This document shows positions 637 to 5,314 of a stretch of DNA of 5,573 nucleotides, in pieces. Numbering within the stretch: position 1 is the stretch's first letter; each line of letters opens with the position of its first letter. A model generated the notes under the pieces. The model did no database searches, was not told the origin of the DNA, and saw only the letters and a program-made list of their open reading frames with translations. This stretch comes from a virus (taxonomy: Duplodnaviria; Heunggongvirae; Uroviricota; Caudoviricetes): IMG/VR virus record IMGVR_UViG_2724679140_000005; one strand, given 5' to 3'. The position numbers were made by a program, and so were the translations under genes.

Positions 637-1710
637 TCACCTGAAGCCCGGCGGAATTTCGTTATCCGGTTCAGAAATATGATTCACACAACGCTGGCTG
701 TTCGTGCCGCTTACCGGGAGCAACCAGGGGTTCTCAAAATTCCGGTCCGGTCCAAAAAACGTCGTCGCTCGCTGAACAAATTCCGTTCCCGTTTTCCCGG
801 TAGTCGCCAGGTATCTTGCGTAACGCCTCACGCCATCCAGCATGGCCTCTGGTGGCACCCCCTCGCGTAATCTGGCCTTCCAGGCACTGAAAGCGGATTT
901 CTTCGGGTTTGCTCCGGCACGCAACGGGTACTCCCGCCAGACCTGTTCGAACACATCCGGATAATCCACTCGTCCCACAGACTGCCCGGTGTTTTCCGGG
1001 ACTACCCGATCGGCTTCCCGCTGAATGGCGGAATCGGCTTCGGGCTGCTGCAGTTGGTGTGATTGCTCCGGCCTTGCGGTCATCACCTGCTGCACAGCGC
1101 CCGAATCGGCTTTCAGCGCATACGCTGAATCGGCTTCCGGTGTCGTGCCTGCTGGCTGACCAGGATTGACGGTCTGAACATCCCCTGCCTGGTTCGTGGC
1201 GTTTTTTACGCCATGGACCATAGTGTTTTGATCTTCTTGATCTGTATCTTTATCTGTATCTTTATCTGTCGTGACTCGTCGTGACATGTGCGTGACATTT
1301 CGTGACGCGCCGTGACAATCGCTATTTTGTTCCCGCTTTCTTTCCCTCTCTCGCTGCGCCCTCTTGCGCTCTGCAGGAGATTTTGCGGTTTGCGAAATAT
1401 TGCCGTTGTCCTCTTTCAGCACCTGGCGTTTTTCCCATCCAGTGATTAAATCACCATCAAGTACCCGCCCCTGCATCGTCTGCAAAATTGAATCAATTAC
1501 CTCTTCTGTCACGTCGAGCGCACTTGCCAAATCTTCTGTCGTGACATCAATGTGACCTCGCGTGACATTTCGTGACGCGCTCACCAGGAGGTGGATATAC
1601 ACTGCCATCACTGTTGCAATTGGCTGCCCTGACACCCTGGCAATTGTTCGCCACTTAGGGTCATTTGGCATGTCATGCCATAATCTGAGCCAGGCGTTAG
1701 CCATACTCAC
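637..1710 (-). CDS. Phage replication initiation protein (lambda O-like / replisome organiser), with iteron clusters inside its N-terminal coding half
   Basis: 357-aa ORF. The N-terminus (AWLRLWHDMPNDPKW...VMAVYIHLL) resembles replisome-organiser N-terminal domains as I recall them. Position directly after ydaS-ydaT matches Rac/Qin-type replication modules. The track start is GTG at 1710; ATG at 1704-1702 with AGAGGTG just upstream is the more likely initiation codon. Confidence 0.8.
   Translation of the reverse strand: MSMANAWLRLWHDMPNDPKWRTIARVSGQPIATVMAVYIHLLVSASRNVTRGHIDVTTEDLASALDVTEEVIDSILQTMQGRVLDGDLITGWEKRQVLKEDNGNISQTAKSPAERKRAQRERERKREQNSDCHGASRNVTHMSRRVTTDKDTDKDTDQEDQNTMVHGVKNATNQAGDVQTVNPGQPAGTTPEADSAYALKADSGAVQQVMTARPEQSHQLQQPEADSAIQREADRVVPENTGQSVGRVDYPDVFEQVWREYPLRAGANPKKSAFSAWKARLREGVPPEAMLDGVRRYARYLATTGKTGTEFVQRATTFFGPDRNFENPWLLPVSGTNSQRCVNHISEPDNEIPPGFR
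1241..1268. repeat. Tandem 12-bp repeat (tctgtatcttta x2 plus a partial copy), relatively AT-rich; encodes the DKDTDKDTD linker of the replication protein
   Basis: Direct reading: tctgtatcttta at 1241-1252 and 1253-1264, then tctgtc. Sits immediately next to the iteron cluster. Confidence 0.7.
1269..1320. repeat. Iteron-like cluster 1: five CGTGAC/GTGAC copies at ~10-11 bp spacing; candidate origin of replication inside the initiator gene
   Basis: GTGAC at about 1271, 1281, 1292, 1302 and 1312. Contains the 20-mer cgtgacatttcgtgacgcgc (1291-1310), which recurs exactly at 1561-1580. Confidence 0.6.
1541..1580. repeat. Iteron-like cluster 2: four GTGAC copies at ~10-11 bp spacing, including an exact 20-bp copy of the cluster-1 element
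   Basis: GTGAC at 1541, 1552, 1562 and 1572. 1561-1580 is identical to 1291-1310. Confidence 0.6.
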
Positions 1711-2596: not shown

Positions 2597-2968
2597 ATGC
2601 AAAAAAAAGAAATTCGCCGTTTACGTCTCAAGGAGTGGTTTAAAGATAAAACTCTGCCACCCAAAGAGAAGAGCTACCTATCTCAACTAATGAGTGGGAG
2701 AGCCTCGTTTGGAGAAAAGGCTGCCAGAAGAATAGAGCAAACATACGGGATGCCGGATGGGTATCTAGATGTGGAATACGCAGAACAACCTGAGGTTTCT
2801 CCACCACATGCAGGGTTAACGTCTAATCAACTGGAATTATTGCAGATTTTTTCAGCCTTCCCTGAGGATGAGCAACGCCAGATAATCAGCGAGTTAAAGC
2901 AGAAAAAAGAATCAATGGAAGATCTCATAGCGAGATGGATTGCGGCGCAAAAATGCCGCCGCGCCTGA
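2597..2968 (+). CDS. paaR2: CI-like HTH repressor, likely PaaR2 (regulator of the paaR2-paaA2-parE2 module and probable prophage repressor)
   Basis: HTH region (KSYLSQLMSGRASFGEKAARRIEQTYGMPDGYLD) of lambda-repressor/XRE type. Divergent from the cro-like gene and directly upstream of paaA2-parE2. The track ORF starts at ATG 2516, but that N-terminal extension is hydrophobic and overlaps the operator repeats, so ATG 2597 (MQKKEIRR...) is preferred; start uncertain. Confidence 0.7.
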   Translation: MQKKEIRRLRLKEWFKDKTLPPKEKSYLSQLMSGRASFGEKAARRIEQTYGMPDGYLDVEYAEQPEVSPPHAGLTSNQLELLQIFSAFPEDEQRQIISELKQKKESMEDLIARWIAAQKCRRA

Positions 2969-2988
2969 GTTATAAAACCGGAGGAAAC

Positions 2989-3180
2989 ATGAATAGAGTC
3001 CTTTCACCAATGGTTTCTGAATTTGAAACCATTGAACAAGAAAACAGTTACAACGAATGGCTGCGTGCGAAAGTAGCAACAAGCCTTGCAGATCCGCGCC
3101 CAGCAATTCCCCATGACGAAGTTGAGCGCAGAATGGCAGAACGCTTTGCTAAAATGCGGAAGGAACGGAGCAAGCAGTAA
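2989..3180 (+). CDS. paaA2: PaaA2-type antitoxin (ParE-associated antitoxin)
   Basis: 63 aa (MNRVLSPMVSEFETIEQENSYNEWLRAK...KERSKQ) matching the PaaA2 antitoxin of E. coli O157 as I remember it; the paralog number is uncertain. GGAGG RBS 5 nt upstream of ATG 2989. The track's longer ORF from 2935 overlaps the repressor 3' end. Confidence 0.8.
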   Translation: MNRVLSPMVSEFETIEQENSYNEWLRAKVATSLADPRPAIPHDEVERRMAERFAKMRKERSKQ

Positions 3181-3181
3181 A

Positions 3182-3460
3182 ATGTTACCCGTGTTATGGC
3201 TTGAAAGTGCAGATACCGACCTAGATGATATAACTAGTTATATTGCTCGTTTCGACGTAGATGCGGCTGAACGCTTATGGCAGCGATTAAGGGGTTGTGT
3301 GCTGCCATTATCCGAACATCCGTATTTATACCCACCAAGCGACAGAGTACCTGGCTTGCGTGAGATTGTGGCCCACCCTAACTATATAATTCTATACCGC
3401 GTAACAACATCAAGCGTTGAAGTAGTAAACGTGATCCACGCAAGACGCCAGTTTCCCTAA
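3182..3460 (+). CDS. parE2: ParE-family toxin (ParE2-like, RelE/ParE superfamily)
   Basis: 92 aa from ATG 3182, one nt after the paaA2 stop. C-terminal signature typical of ParE (YIILYRV...VEVVNVIHARRQFP). The track ORF 3086..3460 is an upstream-extended version in the same frame. Confidence 0.8.
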   Translation: MLPVLWLESADTDLDDITSYIARFDVDAAERLWQRLRGCVLPLSEHPYLYPPSDRVPGLREIVAHPNYIILYRVTTSSVEVVNVIHARRQFP

Positions 3461-3530: not shown

Positions 3531-3580
3531 GGTTTAGTTTTTACTTGACTTAAGTTTAATGTTTATTAAACTAAATCTAC
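3531..3580 (+). promoter_or_regulatory. Candidate PL-like promoter for the ydfABC-dicF-dicB operon, with an operator-like motif shared with the 2501-2596 control region
   Basis: TTGACT (3545-3550), 16-bp spacer, TAAACT (3567-3572). Flanked by GTTTAGTTTTT (3531-3541) and GTTTATTAAACTAAATC (3561-3577), whose reverse complement GATTTAGTTTAATAAAC closely matches TTTAGTGTTTAATAAAC at 2530-2546. Confidence 0.45.
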
Positions 3581-3748
3581 CAACCCATCCCGCCCCACAG
3601 AACGCAGGGCAATACTTCGAGTTACCAGGCAGTGGTCAGGGGTTAAGTAGCCAGCCCGAGGCGTAAGAACATGACGGCAGGGTTCAACTTTAACTATGCA
3701 GCAGGTTTTTGTTCCGCTACCCCGGCGTTAAGGGGAAATGAGGTCAGC

Positions 3749-4063: not shown

Positions 4064-4282
4064 ATGCAGAAACGAGAACCCGTCATCATCGCGCCAGACT
4101 ATACCGATGATGAACTTTATGAGTGGATGCGCCAGAAAATTAATGCAGCGCAGGATCTGAAATGGGCCAATGAAGCCAGGGTTAAACAGGCTGAAAATCT
4201 GTCCGCTCTGGAGACGGATATCACCAATCTGGAAAAAGCAGCGGCATTAAGCATTGCCAGAATGATTACATACCCACGTTAA
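4064..4282 (+). CDS. ydfC: YdfC-like prophage protein (72 aa)
   Basis: MQKREPVIIAPDYTDDELYEWMRQKINAAQDLKW... matches Qin YdfC as recalled. GAGGAA RBS upstream of the ATG. Confidence 0.75.
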   Translation: MQKREPVIIAPDYTDDELYEWMRQKINAAQDLKWANEARVKQAENLSALETDITNLEKAAALSIARMITYPR

Positions 4283-4304
4283 TAGCTAACCAACGAGGCT
4301 AATA

Positions 4305-4712
4305 ATGGAATTTAAAGATTCACCAAAAGAAATCCAGACAATTGCTGCAACGGCTCTCGGTGATAGTCTGGTGAAAATTGACCCGGCATACACCAAAAAA
4401 GAAACCATCGATAATATGGTTCGTAATGTGCGCAATGCTTTTTCTGGGCTATATGGTCCTGATAATCAAAAGCAGGAAAGCGATGTTAATAAACGGGTAA
4501 TTTCTGTTTGCGTGAATGGCCATGTTCTTTCATCAATCAAAACAGAAACAGCGACAGTCTTCGATTGCCTTTGCATTGTACAGAGCCTTGTTGATGCCCT
4601 GTTTCGTTCAGTGAATTTAGAAAATGATGCAAATCTGCGAGGGCGCACAATAGCACATCCATATGCACATACTTTAGGCTCTGTGGATATCAAAGATCCC
4701 ACAAATCTTTAA
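4305..4712 (+). CDS. Hypothetical protein (135 aa) in an AT-rich insert; function unknown
   Basis: ORF with GAGG RBS ~8 nt upstream of the ATG. Local GC is clearly lower than in flanking prophage genes. I recognise no motifs. Confidence 0.55.
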   Translation: MEFKDSPKEIQTIAATALGDSLVKIDPAYTKKETIDNMVRNVRNAFSGLYGPDNQKQESDVNKRVISVCVNGHVLSSIKTETATVFDCLCIVQSLVDALFRSVNLENDANLRGRTIAHPYAHTLGSVDIKDPTNL

Positions 4713-4923
4713 TGAAATAGTTAACGCGAATTGTACTTGCTCTTTCAGTTGCTTTCAGAATACGCGTTGAAACTGCTGGCGGTAATTTGGTATTCCATTT
4801 ATTAAAATCATGCCCGGGAAAGTACTCTTCGAAAATACTTTTAACTGCAGACTCGCCTATTGAAATGCTGCTTACCATGCGACTTTGATAAAGGCATTTA
4901 GCAATAAGAGTTGATTTTAACAT
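4690..4923 (-). CDS. Hypothetical small protein (77 aa), convergent with and overlapping the 3' end of the 135-aa gene
   Basis: ATG at 4923-4921 preceded by AGGAGG (complement of 4928-4933, 4-nt spacer). AT-rich. Overlaps 4305..4712 by 23 bp at the 3' ends. Confidence 0.5.
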   Translation of the reverse strand: MLKSTLIAKCLYQSRMVSSISIGESAVKSIFEEYFPGHDFNKWNTKLPPAVSTRILKATERASTIRVNYFIKDLWDL

Positions 4924-4936
4924 TCACCCTCCTGAA

Positions 4937-5256
4937 GGTTGGTAATTAAGGAGTTCTCCACGGGTGAGGTGGAGTGCGTGCGCCGGACACGGGTGAACAT
5001 CCGGCACAGACAGTTTACTGAAAGGATATTTCCCTGAAAAGTCAGACCATAACGCGAAAGCGCACGGCGAGGTAGCTGGTTCATAGATAGCCTGTCGTTA
5101 AATTTTCGTCGACCGTGCGCTTCCGGTTGTGGCACTCCGCGAAATGGCGCGGCGGTAAGTATAGCGGGGTTATTCCTTCCCCGTTGAGGACACCGGGTTG
5201 TCAGGTTGACCATACGCTTAAGTGACAACCCCGCTGCAACGCCCTCTGTTATCAAT
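4937..5256 (+). other. GC-rich structured non-coding leader upstream of DicF (probable dicF precursor/processing region)
   Basis: Perfect inverted repeats: aagcgcacgg (5058-5067) with ccgtgcgctt (5113-5122); gggttgtca (5195-5203) with tgacaaccc (5223-5231); gccgga (4982-4987) with tccggc (5000-5005). The only ORF here (minus 4917..5255) is Arg-rich and implausible. Confidence 0.4.
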
Positions 5257-5314
5257 TTTCTGGTGACGTTTGGCGGTATCAGTTTTACTACGTGACTGCT
5301 CTGCCGCCCTTTTT
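5257..5314 (+). ncRNA. dicF: DicF small regulatory RNA (antisense inhibitor of ftsZ translation) with intrinsic terminator
   Basis: Sequence beginning tttctggtgacgtttggcggtatcag... and ending ...ctgctctgccgccc followed by ttttt matches DicF as I recall it. Located directly upstream of dicB, as in Qin. Confidence 0.75.

What the first reader, a model, noticed from the sequence alone, without database searches (positions are those of the whole stretch)
4290..4925. AT-rich insert with two convergent, 3'-overlapping ORFs of unknown function between ydfC and the DicF leader
Between ydfC (ends 4282) and the GC-rich DicF leader (from about 4937) lies a ~0.65 kb segment with visibly lower GC than its surroundings. 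It carries a 135-aa ORF (4305..4712, +) and a 77-aa ORF (4690..4923, -) that overlap by 23 bp at their 3' ends. The minus ORF has a strong AGGAGG RBS and is antisense to the surrounding early-operon transcript. I recognise neither protein. The compositional break and gene arrangement suggest a horizontally acquired cargo module, possibly a superinfection-exclusion/defence or toxin-antitoxin-like pair; this is inference.
Basis: partly seen in the sequence, partly recalled or inferred. Interest (0 to 1): 0.7.

Follow-up and report, generated by a model that had tools for sequence, protein, structure and literature searches.

The report
Conserved convergent prophage gene pair
The AT-rich segment holds two real, selected genes that always travel together as a tail-to-tail overlapping pair next to the on/off switch of many temperate phages of gut bacteria, including E. 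coli O157:H7 prophages; nobody knows what they do, and the evidence best fits a prophage-expressed small protein with a matching early-gene partner.

Summary
ORF135 (4305-4712, +) and ORF77 (4690-4923, -) overlap by 23 bp in the lowest-GC stretch of the window. K-12 Qin lacks exactly 4303-4934.

Both are real genes (dN/dS about 0.1-0.4; PHROG 1363 and 10348, function unknown). There are no Pfam, NCBIfam, PADLOC or PDB matches. ORF77 models as a confident five-helix protein (pLDDT 95) with no structural neighbour.

The two genes are a coupled pair, not chance cargo. ORF135 residues about 62-135 form a core domain. A gene carrying this core lies convergent to ORF77 in 98 of 100 ORF77 hits, and ORF77 lies convergent to the core in 43 of 49 core loci. 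The overlap is 23-53 bp. The pair occurs from E. coli to Serratia, Yersinia, Klebsiella, Dickeya, Xenorhabdus and Proteus, and in a high-GC phage contig, usually just beside the repressor gene. Where ORF77 is missing, the core is followed by extra sequence and a different convergent gene sits behind the same conserved, structured leader.

ORF77 occupies the slot that sieB holds in Rac. My best, inferred model is a prophage-expressed effector with a cognate early-operon antagonist. Function is unproven. K-12 looks like a deletion, not the ancestral empty site.

The parts
4303..4934 (.). Two-gene cassette that is absent from K-12 Qin. It is a presence/absence polymorphism in E. coli.
   Evidence: BLASTN and junction alignment against MG1655. 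Found in 645 of 5426 genomes, against 2694 with the empty junction. GC is 39.6%.
4305..4712 (+). ORF135, which lies in the dicB (PL-like) operon. Residues 1 to about 60 (4305-4484) form a two-helix N-domain that is shared with other early-operon proteins. Residues about 62-135 (4488-4712) form the conserved core domain: a beta-hairpin, two helices and a conserved disordered tail ending IKDPTNL.
   Evidence: PHROG 1363 for the whole protein; PHROG 23433 for residues 57-128; N-domain PHROGs 2151, 9419 and 6937. Alignments A2-A5. Profile search. AF2 pLDDT 66.9. dN/dS 0.19-0.42.
4690..4923 (-). ORF77, a 77-aa soluble five-helix protein of an orphan fold, transcribed against the operon.
4690..4712 (.). 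23-bp 3' overlap. It is a pseudo-palindrome (TCAAAGAT-N7-ATCTTTAA), so both proteins end I-K-D-x-x-x-L-stop.
   Evidence: Read directly from the sequence. The overlap length is conserved: 23 bp in 91 hits and 26 bp in 4; 23, 26, 33 or 53 bp in the core-anchored set; 38 bp in the high-GC contig L104.
4924..5012 (-). Structured leader upstream of ORF77, with two hairpins plus a hairpin that occludes the SD. K-12 retains it up to the anti-SD arm. Its counterpart in other genera is conserved in front of alternative cargo genes.
   Evidence: Minus-strand MFE is -34.3 kcal/mol with z = -3.34, against z = +0.22 for the plus strand. Conserved leader with covarying stems. No Rfam family.
5012..5040 (-). 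Weak sigma-70 candidate promoter for ORF77: TTTTCA (5040-5035), 17 nt, TAAACT (5017-5012).
   Evidence: Read from the sequence. It falls below the scan threshold (8 of 12 matches), and the scan found nothing upstream of ORF77. This is inference only.
4064..4282 (+). ydfC, the upstream neighbour. It is linked to the module by gene fusion in Yersinia.
   Evidence: The Yersinia partners of 191-205 aa are a YdfC-like N-domain fused to the core. BLASTP against window YdfC gives E = 4e-11.
5258..5309 (+). DicF sRNA gene. It is a context marker and not part of the pair.
   Evidence: Rfam RF00039, 73.4 bits.

Best explanation
ORF135 and ORF77 are the E. coli Qin/CP-933O-type copy of a conserved cognate gene pair at the promoter-proximal end of the early-left (PL/dicBp) operon of lambdoid temperate phages. 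Shown: the pair is real, is under purifying selection, is almost always found together, and always sits tail-to-tail with overlapping stop regions. ORF77 is a compact five-helix protein. The partner has a small folded core followed by a conserved, unstructured C-terminal tail. ORF77 sits in the same slot that sieB holds in Rac. Inferred: ORF77 is made from its own signals in the lysogen, with translation held down by an SD-occluding leader, and acts as an accessory effector such as a superinfection-exclusion or abortive-infection factor. When the prophage's own early operon fires, ORF77 would be switched off in two ways. Convergent transcription through the gene would give interference and antisense RNA. 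The ORF135 core would bind and neutralise ORF77 through its C-terminal tail, giving the phage self-immunity. The evolutionary and anatomical part carries about 0.9 confidence. The confidence number given below is for the functional model.
For: A convergent core-domain partner was found in 98 of 100 ORF77 hits (37 distinct pairs; overlap of 23 or 26 bp in 95), with the exceptions being a contig end and a non-prophage homologue. In the reverse, core-anchored scan, 43 of 49 loci carry convergent ORF77. The pair lies directly downstream of the S24 repressor gene in Serratia, Dickeya, Yersinia and Klebsiella; in Xenorhabdus a 64-aa gene lies in between. It lies beside HTH switch genes in a high-GC phage contig. 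Where ORF77 is absent, the core is followed by extra sequence, either fused or as a separate ORF, and a different convergent gene sits behind the same leader. Cassette C recurs in 3 of 3 loci with homologous extension and homologous convergent gene. The AF2 model of ORF135 shows the conserved C-terminal tail as disordered, as in binding tails, while ORF77 is very well folded. The synteny with Rac is racR, ydaG, ydaF (DUF1391) converging on sieB, then kilS and kilR; here it is dicA-like, ydfA (DUF1391), ydfB, ydfC, ORF135 converging on ORF77, then dicF and dicB. The ORF77 SD sits in a hairpin whose arms covary across leader types. No terminator-like site lies between the genes, so the transcripts should collide.
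Against: There is no expression, interaction, toxicity or phage-resistance data. No hit was found to any defence or toxin model or to any solved fold. No convincing promoter for ORF77 was found in the window. Net charge of ORF77 is not conserved, ranging from +3.6 to -5.2, so no obvious nucleic-acid target can be named. A standalone ORF77 homologue sits in a Psychrosphaera chromosome outside any prophage and without a partner. Which partner acts on which is not determined. 2694 E. coli genomes carry the empty junction, so the pair is dispensable there.
Confidence: 0.35

Rival explanations
1. The pair is a regulatory module of the lysis-lysogeny decision. ORF77 would be a lysogeny-phase factor that restrains the early-left operon or a host factor needed for lytic growth, and the first early protein (the core) would relieve it. 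The convergent promoters would act as a second switch by transcriptional interference.
For: The pair sits immediately next to the repressor/cro switch in many genera. Its architecture is convergent and overlapping, with no terminator between the genes. A conserved structured leader lies on the path of the early transcript.
Against: The slot also accepts unrelated cargo genes behind the same leader, which fits accessory cargo better than core regulation. Most E. coli Qin-like loci do without the pair. Neither protein has a recognisable DNA- or RNA-binding domain.
Confidence: 0.2
2. The pair is a toxin-antitoxin-like addiction pair. One protein would be toxic and the other its labile antidote, stabilising the prophage.
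For: The genes are tightly linked and matched as a pair. The partner has a small folded domain plus a disordered conserved tail, like many type II antitoxins. The convergent 3' overlap recalls some type I systems (own knowledge: txpA/RatA and bsrG/SR4 of B. subtilis). A bona fide TA system (PaaA2/ParE) lies 1 kb upstream, so such cargo does occur in this operon.
Against: The genes are convergent and under different promoters, one of which is repressed in the lysogen, so co-expression, the defining logic of a TA system, is not built in. There is no similarity to any toxin or antitoxin family. ORF77 has no membrane segment, and both strands encode proteins under selection, unlike type I systems.
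Confidence: 0.12
3. The ORF135 core is the active early protein, for example a host-takeover factor, and ORF77 is a lysogen-expressed inhibitor of it. ORF77 would then protect the lysogen from leaky expression or block related superinfecting phages that depend on their own core protein.
For: The pairing evidence is the same as for the best explanation. The core is fused to varied N-terminal modules (YdfC-like, ClpX-type zinc finger, N-domain), as effector proteins often are.
Against: A resident phage would inhibit its own early protein. The core is dispensable in the many loci that lack it. No effector-like domain was detected.
Confidence: 0.15
4. The two ORFs are unrelated hitch-hiking morons, or spurious ORFs, that happen to abut.
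For: Both are annotated only as hypothetical proteins. The segment has low GC.
Against: Co-occurrence and overlap are conserved across at least 37 distinct pairs and many genera. dN/dS is well below 1 with saturated dS. The ORF77 model is high-confidence.
Confidence: 0.03

Closest known systems
sieB (with esc and the sas antisense RNA) of phages P22 and lambda and of the Rac prophage
   Same: The topological slot is the same: a gene transcribed against the early-left operon, convergent with and 3'-overlapping the DUF1391-type early gene, followed by an sRNA gene and a cell-division inhibitor (Rac; window). From my own knowledge (Ranade and Poteete 1993), SieB is prophage-expressed, aborts other phages, and the phage escapes through its own product and an antisense RNA made from PL.
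   Different: There is no sequence or fold similarity. SieB is a 162-192-aa membrane protein, whereas ORF77 is a 77-aa soluble helical protein. In the SieB system the antidote is an internal product of the same gene. Here the candidate antidote is a separate convergent gene.
Type II toxin-antitoxin systems
   Same: It is a two-gene cognate pair. One partner is small and well folded. The other has a small folded domain plus a conserved disordered C-terminal tail, and its C-terminal part changes together with the partner gene.
   Different: The genes are convergent and not in one operon. No known toxin or antitoxin domain is present. Toxicity is untested.
Type I TA loci with convergent 3'-overlapping transcripts (txpA/RatA and bsrG/SR4; own knowledge)
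   Same: The arrangement is convergent with overlap at the 3' ends.
   Different: Both strands here encode conserved proteins. There is no hydrophobic toxin peptide.
Prophage defence genes with self-immunity placed beside the repressor (lambda rexAB, HK022 nun, BTP1 bstA/aba; own knowledge)
   Same: The location is next to the immunity region, and the logic of prophage expression plus a means for the resident phage to escape is the same.
   Different: Those genes are co-oriented with the repressor gene and are unrelated in sequence. No defence phenotype is known for ORF77.
Overlapping exclusion genes olg1 and gene 10 of Pseudomonas phage Fc02 (PMC9936078)
   Same: A 7.9-kDa prophage-expressed protein near the repressor is overlapped on the other strand by the second gene of the early lytic operon. 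Both give superinfection exclusion.
   Different: Fc02 is a Mu-like phage, the overlap there is extensive rather than limited to the 3' ends, and tblastn found no homologue in Pseudomonas phages.
PHROG 10348 and PHROG 1363/23433
   Same: ORF77 and ORF135 are members of these families, at E = 3.5e-47 and 1.2e-44.
   Different: These families carry no function, and nothing in them records the pairing.

Membership tests
PHROG 10348 (ORF77) and PHROG 1363 (ORF135) | A significant full-length match to the family profile | tested here: met
   E = 3.5e-47 over residues 1-77 of 77, and E = 1.2e-44 over residues 1-130. Both families are of unknown function.
Type II toxin-antitoxin system | The two genes are adjacent and co-transcribed in one operon | tested here: not met
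   The genes are convergent, on opposite strands, with 3' ends overlapping.
Type II toxin-antitoxin system | The toxin or antitoxin belongs to a known TA superfamily | tested here: not met
Type II toxin-antitoxin system | The antitoxin has a folded domain plus a disordered toxin-binding tail | tested here: inconclusive
   AF2 gives a beta-hairpin plus two helices at pLDDT 70-81, and a conserved tail (residues 112-135) at about 50-55. Binding was not tested.
Type II toxin-antitoxin system | One product is toxic and the other neutralises it | not testable with these tools
   This needs expression experiments.
Type I TA with 3'-overlapping antisense RNA | A small hydrophobic toxin peptide and a non-coding antitoxin RNA | tested here: not met
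   The maximum Kyte-Doolittle 19-residue score of ORF77 is 0.74. Both ORFs are under purifying selection as proteins.
SieB superinfection exclusion | Homology to SieB, or a membrane protein of 160-190 aa | tested here: not met
   No Pfam or PHROG match to SieB. ORF77 is 77 aa with no TM segment.
SieB superinfection exclusion | Position: antisense gene in the early-left operon, convergent with a DUF1391-type early gene cluster and upstream of a division inhibitor | tested here: met
   Rac map compared with the window.
Moron (prophage accessory cassette) | Base composition differs from neighbours, and presence is variable among related phages | tested here: met
   GC is 39.6% against about 48%. 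Genome counts for the three alleles are 645, 2694 and 8.
Moron (prophage accessory cassette) | Own promoter and terminator, and expression in the lysogen | tested here: inconclusive
   The scan found no promoter upstream of ORF77 and no terminator after it. There is only a weak TTTTCA-17-TAAACT candidate. No expression data were available.
Known anti-phage defence systems (PADLOC-DB v2) | A match to any component model | tested here: not met
   Zero families at E of 0.1 or below for ORF135, ORF77 and YdfC.
Qin-type dicBF early operon | ydfA (DUF1391), ydfB, ydfC, DicF and dicB in that order, downstream of a dicA-like repressor | tested here: met
   Pfam DUF1391, Rfam DicF, and collinearity with MG1655 at 97-98% identity.

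The most novel reading that the evidence does not exclude
The promoter-proximal end of the early-left operon of lambdoid phages holds a previously unrecognised cassette slot. A conserved structured leader drives interchangeable antisense cargo genes, each matched to the C-terminal part of the convergent early protein. ORF77 plus the core would be the commonest cassette and would represent a new two-component system: an orphan-fold, prophage-expressed effector and a cognate early antidote encoded tail-to-tail. That would make it a new kind of phage exclusion/self-immunity or TA-like system.
Probability: 0.3. Interest if true: 0.8.

Novelty: new variant of a known kind. Interest (0 to 1): 0.6.

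Why it matters
The pair is carried by about one in eight complete E. coli genomes, including O157:H7 prophages. It also sits beside the genetic switch of temperate phages across Enterobacterales, yet both proteins are annotated only as hypothetical. If the pair is an exclusion system with built-in self-immunity, or a second layer of the lysis-lysogeny switch, three things follow. It would add a new protein fold and a new gene architecture (convergent, stop-codon-overlapping cognate genes) to phage-host conflict systems. It would define a new hotspot for swapping accessory genes. It would also explain part of the long untranslated dicF leader that K-12 studies have treated as featureless. The proposal can be tested directly with cloned genes and an inducible phage (Evi).

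Tried and rejected
1. I first thought ORF135 was a 3'-truncated 201-aa gene whose tail had been replaced by ORF77. I rejected this because the 135-aa ending (IKDPTNL, 23-bp overlap) is the form conserved across genera. The 201-aa form is the rare allele, found in 8 genomes.

2. I read TGnTATCTT upstream of ORF77 in other genera as an extended -10 promoter. This reading is weakened, because that motif is the 5' arm of a covarying hairpin that pairs with the SD. The transcription start site remains unknown.

3. I considered an H-type pseudoknot (stems S1 and S2 interleaved) acting on the early-operon strand. Loop geometry favours that strand, but for the E. coli leader, thermodynamics and G-U pairs favour the ORF77-sense strand. 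The strand question is unresolved.

5. The search for related loci with the broad ORF77 alignment failed because no stretch was conserved enough. The genome-contig scan gave only 4 loci.

6. Column-wise pair counting on the MAFFT leader alignment (A9) was abandoned because stem 3 was out of register. I used per-sequence folds instead.

7. Literature searches for ydfC, the dicF loci and WP_000920491 found nothing on these two genes.

Full report
**1. The observation**

The window is a Qin/CP-933O-like lambdoid early region. It contains the following features:
- replication genes, and ydaS/ydaT-like genes, on the minus strand;
- a dicA-like HTH gene;
- a PaaA2/ParE toxin-antitoxin pair;
- ydfA (DUF1391), ydfB and ydfC (4064-4282);
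- the two ORFs of the finding;
- DicF at 5258-5309 (Rfam, 73.4 bits);
- the start of dicB.

ORF135 is 4305-4712 (+) and ORF77 is 4690-4923 (-). They overlap by 23 bp at their 3' ends. ORF77 has AGGAGG four bases upstream of its ATG.

GC of the segment is 39.6%, against about 48% on either side. It is essentially the lowest-GC 632-bp stretch in the window.

Against K-12 MG1655 the flanks are collinear at 97-98% identity, and K-12 lacks exactly 4303-4934. Among 5426 complete E. coli genomes, three alleles were counted:
- 645 carry this cassette at 80% coverage or more, including many O157:H7 and O111 strains;
- 2694 carry the K-12-type empty junction;
- 8 carry a third allele.

RefSeq calls both products hypothetical proteins: WP_073519719.1 or WP_000394552.1 for ORF135, and WP_000920491.1 for ORF77. 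The closest phage record is Escherichia phage Evi.

**2. Both ORFs are real genes without a known function**

ORF77 matches PHROG 10348 and ORF135 matches PHROG 1363. Both families are of unknown function. Pfam, NCBIfam, PADLOC and PDB sequence searches gave nothing useful.

ORF77 has homologues at 55-71% identity in Dickeya, Xenorhabdus, Klebsiella/Raoultella, Morganella, Yersinia, Serratia and Salmonella. Almost all of them are exactly 77 aa. A profile search of 1.84 billion representative proteins finds 163 clusters, nearly all standalone proteins of 74-80 aa.

Pairwise dN/dS is 0.10-0.35 for ORF77 and 0.19-0.42 for the conserved part of ORF135, with dS at or near saturation between genera.

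**3. ORF135 is modular, and its C-terminal core is the conserved partner of ORF77**

The gene convergent to every ORF77 homologue examined in other genera encodes a protein of 75-85 aa. That protein aligns with ORF135 residues about 62-135. Its motif is VNG..L..I.T..AVAADY...LE.EAN.SG(K/R)TI.H...FGS..I.DPKGL.

ORF135 residues 1-60 form a separate N-domain. This domain also occurs alone or fused to other C-termini, for example in gp22 of the Stx2a phage ArgO145, which has no ORF77 nearby.

In Yersinia the core is fused to a YdfC-like domain (BLASTP against window YdfC, E = 4e-11). In Y. rohdei it is fused to a ClpX-type zinc finger. The N-terminus is therefore free to vary, while the C-terminus is constrained.

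**4. The pairing is close to obligate, and the architecture is conserved**

I ran two scans, anchored on each partner in turn.

Anchored on ORF77: across all loci fetched with ORF77 as bait, 98 of 100 ORF77 hits have a core-domain gene on the opposite strand. These make 37 distinct pairs. The overlap is 23 bp in 91 hits and 26 bp in 4. The remaining 3 are extra fragments of frameshifted ORF77 copies. The two hits without a partner are a contig end and a standalone chromosomal homologue in Psychrosphaera, which is not in a prophage.

Anchored on the core: in the independent scan, 43 of 49 viral contigs carry convergent ORF77, with an overlap of 23, 26, 33 or 53 bp.

A distant high-GC phage contig also has the pair, with a 38-bp overlap, next to cro/cI-like HTH genes.

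In Serratia, Dickeya, Yersinia and Klebsiella, the core gene is the first gene downstream of the S24 repressor gene. That is the PL-proximal position. ORF77 points back toward it. In Xenorhabdus a 64-aa gene lies between the repressor and the core.

In the enterobacterial copies the 23-bp overlap is a pseudo-palindrome, so both proteins end I-K-(D/E)-x-x-x-L.

**5. The slot takes alternative matched cassettes behind one leader**

Where ORF77 is missing, the core is followed by extra sequence, and a different convergent gene takes ORF77's place. Four alternatives were seen:
- In the rare E. coli allele, a 201-aa protein (ORF135 residues 1-128 plus 73 new residues) faces an unrelated 63-aa gene. 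The overlap is again 23 bp, and the RBS and right-hand junction are the same.
- A related form pairs a 141-aa protein with a 60-aa gene.
- A 208-aa Serratia form faces a 49-aa ORF.
- In three viral contigs, an extension domain is paired with a convergent protein of about 150 aa. Both parts are homologous among the three loci. L131 and L138 carry yet another module, with an embedded zinc-ribbon ORF.

All of these cargo genes are preceded by the same leader of about 75 nt. The leader's stems change by compensatory substitutions:
- S1: GCCTG/CAGGC, GCCGGG/CCCGGC, or GCCGGA/TCCGGC in E. coli.
- S2: CCACC/GGTGG, CCACA/TGTGG, CCACT/AGTGG, CCACG/CGTGG, or CGTG/CACG in E. coli.
- S3, which contains the cargo SD: TCTTGG/CCAAGA, TCTTGT/ACAAGA, TCCTTGC/GCAAGGA, TTCTCTTAG/CTAAAGAGAA, CCTTAT/ATAAGG, or CTCCT/AGGAG in E. 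coli.

No Rfam family covers this element.

In the window, the ORF77-sense strand of 4921-5012 folds much better than shuffled sequence (-34.3 kcal/mol, z = -3.3). The opposite strand does not (z = +0.2).

K-12 keeps this leader up to the anti-SD arm but lacks the SD and both genes. On that basis I read the K-12 state as a deletion rather than an unoccupied site. This is an inference.

**6. Positional analogy**

In the Rac prophage of K-12 the order is:
- racR, ydaG and ydaF (DUF1391), all leftward;
- then sieB, rightward and 3'-overlapping ydaF;
- then the kilS sRNA and the FtsZ inhibitor kilR.

The window has:
- dicA-like, ydfA (DUF1391), ydfB, ydfC and ORF135;
- then ORF77 convergent to them;
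- then the DicF sRNA and the division inhibitor dicB.

ORF77 therefore occupies the sieB slot. From my own knowledge, SieB is a prophage-expressed abortive-infection protein, and the resident phage escapes it through its own early functions, including an antisense RNA. This is a positional analogy only. There is no homology between ORF77 and SieB.

**7. Mechanism**

Shown: the two genes form a cognate pair under selection, arranged convergently and overlapping. The promoter-distal gene is antisense to the early operon. Its SD sits in a conserved hairpin. No terminator-like site separates the two genes.

Inferred: ORF77 is made at a low, controlled level in the lysogen and acts as an accessory effector. 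When the early operon fires, transcription through ORF77 and the ORF135 core protein, acting through its conserved tail, would together shut ORF77 down.

I give the functional model a confidence of 0.35. The rivals are:
- a lysis-lysogeny regulatory pair (0.2);
- the reverse polarity, in which the core is the effector and ORF77 its inhibitor (0.15);
- a TA-like addiction pair (0.12);
- chance neighbours (0.03).

**8. Comparison with known systems, and novelty**

The module fails the operon and domain criteria of type II TA systems. It fails the peptide and RNA criteria of type I systems. It has no match in PADLOC. It meets two criteria of a moron, composition and variable presence, but not a demonstrable promoter or terminator.

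I found no paper dealing with these two genes. The nearest published analogue in concept is the pair of overlapping exclusion genes of Pseudomonas phage Fc02, which is unrelated in sequence.

I rate the module as a new variant of a known kind, namely prophage accessory cassettes with a cognate partner in the sieB slot. I see a real chance, about 0.3, that it is a new type of two-component exclusion or TA-like system.

Noticed in passing
window 4924-5012 (minus strand); also K-12 L003 about 3561-3640, and the leaders in L008-L158: A conserved leader of about 75-90 nt precedes ORF77 and every alternative convergent cargo gene. It has three stems that covary across types. S1 and S2 are interleaved like a pseudoknot, and S3 buries the SD. 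No Rfam family covers it. K-12 retains most of it inside the 'untranslated' dicF leader. Which strand uses the structure is unresolved.
   Followed up: partly
window 2597-3460: A three-gene block made of a dicA-like/PaaR2-type HTH gene (2597-2968), PaaA2 (2989-3180; Pfam PF21217, 1e-19) and a ParE toxin (3182-3460; PF05016, 8e-17). This is the known paaR2-paaA2-parE2-type TA system, sitting in the same early operon.
   Followed up: no
L013 3712-4287; also P0082, P0093 and P0099: In Yersinia prophages a YdfC-like domain is fused to the core domain (E = 4e-11 against window YdfC). This links the uncharacterised K-12 gene ydfC to the module.
   Followed up: partly
P0101 (Yersinia rohdei, 156 aa): A ClpX-type C4 zinc finger (PF06689) is fused to the N-terminus of the core domain.
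   Followed up: no
L004-L007 4001-4775; 8 complete E. coli genomes: An alternative allele occupies the same site. A 201-aa protein (ORF135 residues 1-128 plus a new 73-aa tail) is convergent with an unrelated 63-aa gene. The overlap is again exactly 23 bp, and the RBS and right junction are the same.
   Followed up: partly
L023 3989-4228 (Psychrosphaera sp. chromosome): A standalone ORF77 homologue (43% identity) lies between a chemotaxis-receptor gene and a glycosidase gene. It has no core partner and no prophage context.
   Followed up: no
L131 2801-3085 and L138 2810-3010 (minus strand): A conserved zinc-ribbon ORF of 66-94 aa (CxxC...CxxC) lies fully antisense inside the ORF that follows the core domain in another cassette type.
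   Followed up: no
L022, L101 and L103: These loci carry frameshifted (pseudogenised) ORF77 copies next to an intact core gene.
   Followed up: no
window about 1265-1320 and 1545-1580: CGTGAC(A) motifs are repeated inside the 357-aa replication-initiator-like ORF (637-1710, minus strand). They look like origin iterons. I read this from the sequence.
   Followed up: no
L002 (O157:H7 SS52) compared with the window, ORF135 N-domain: The O157-type ORF135 shares the core with the window copy but has a different N-terminal domain sequence. dN/dS across the full length is about 0.8, which indicates mosaic recombination inside the gene.
   Followed up: partly
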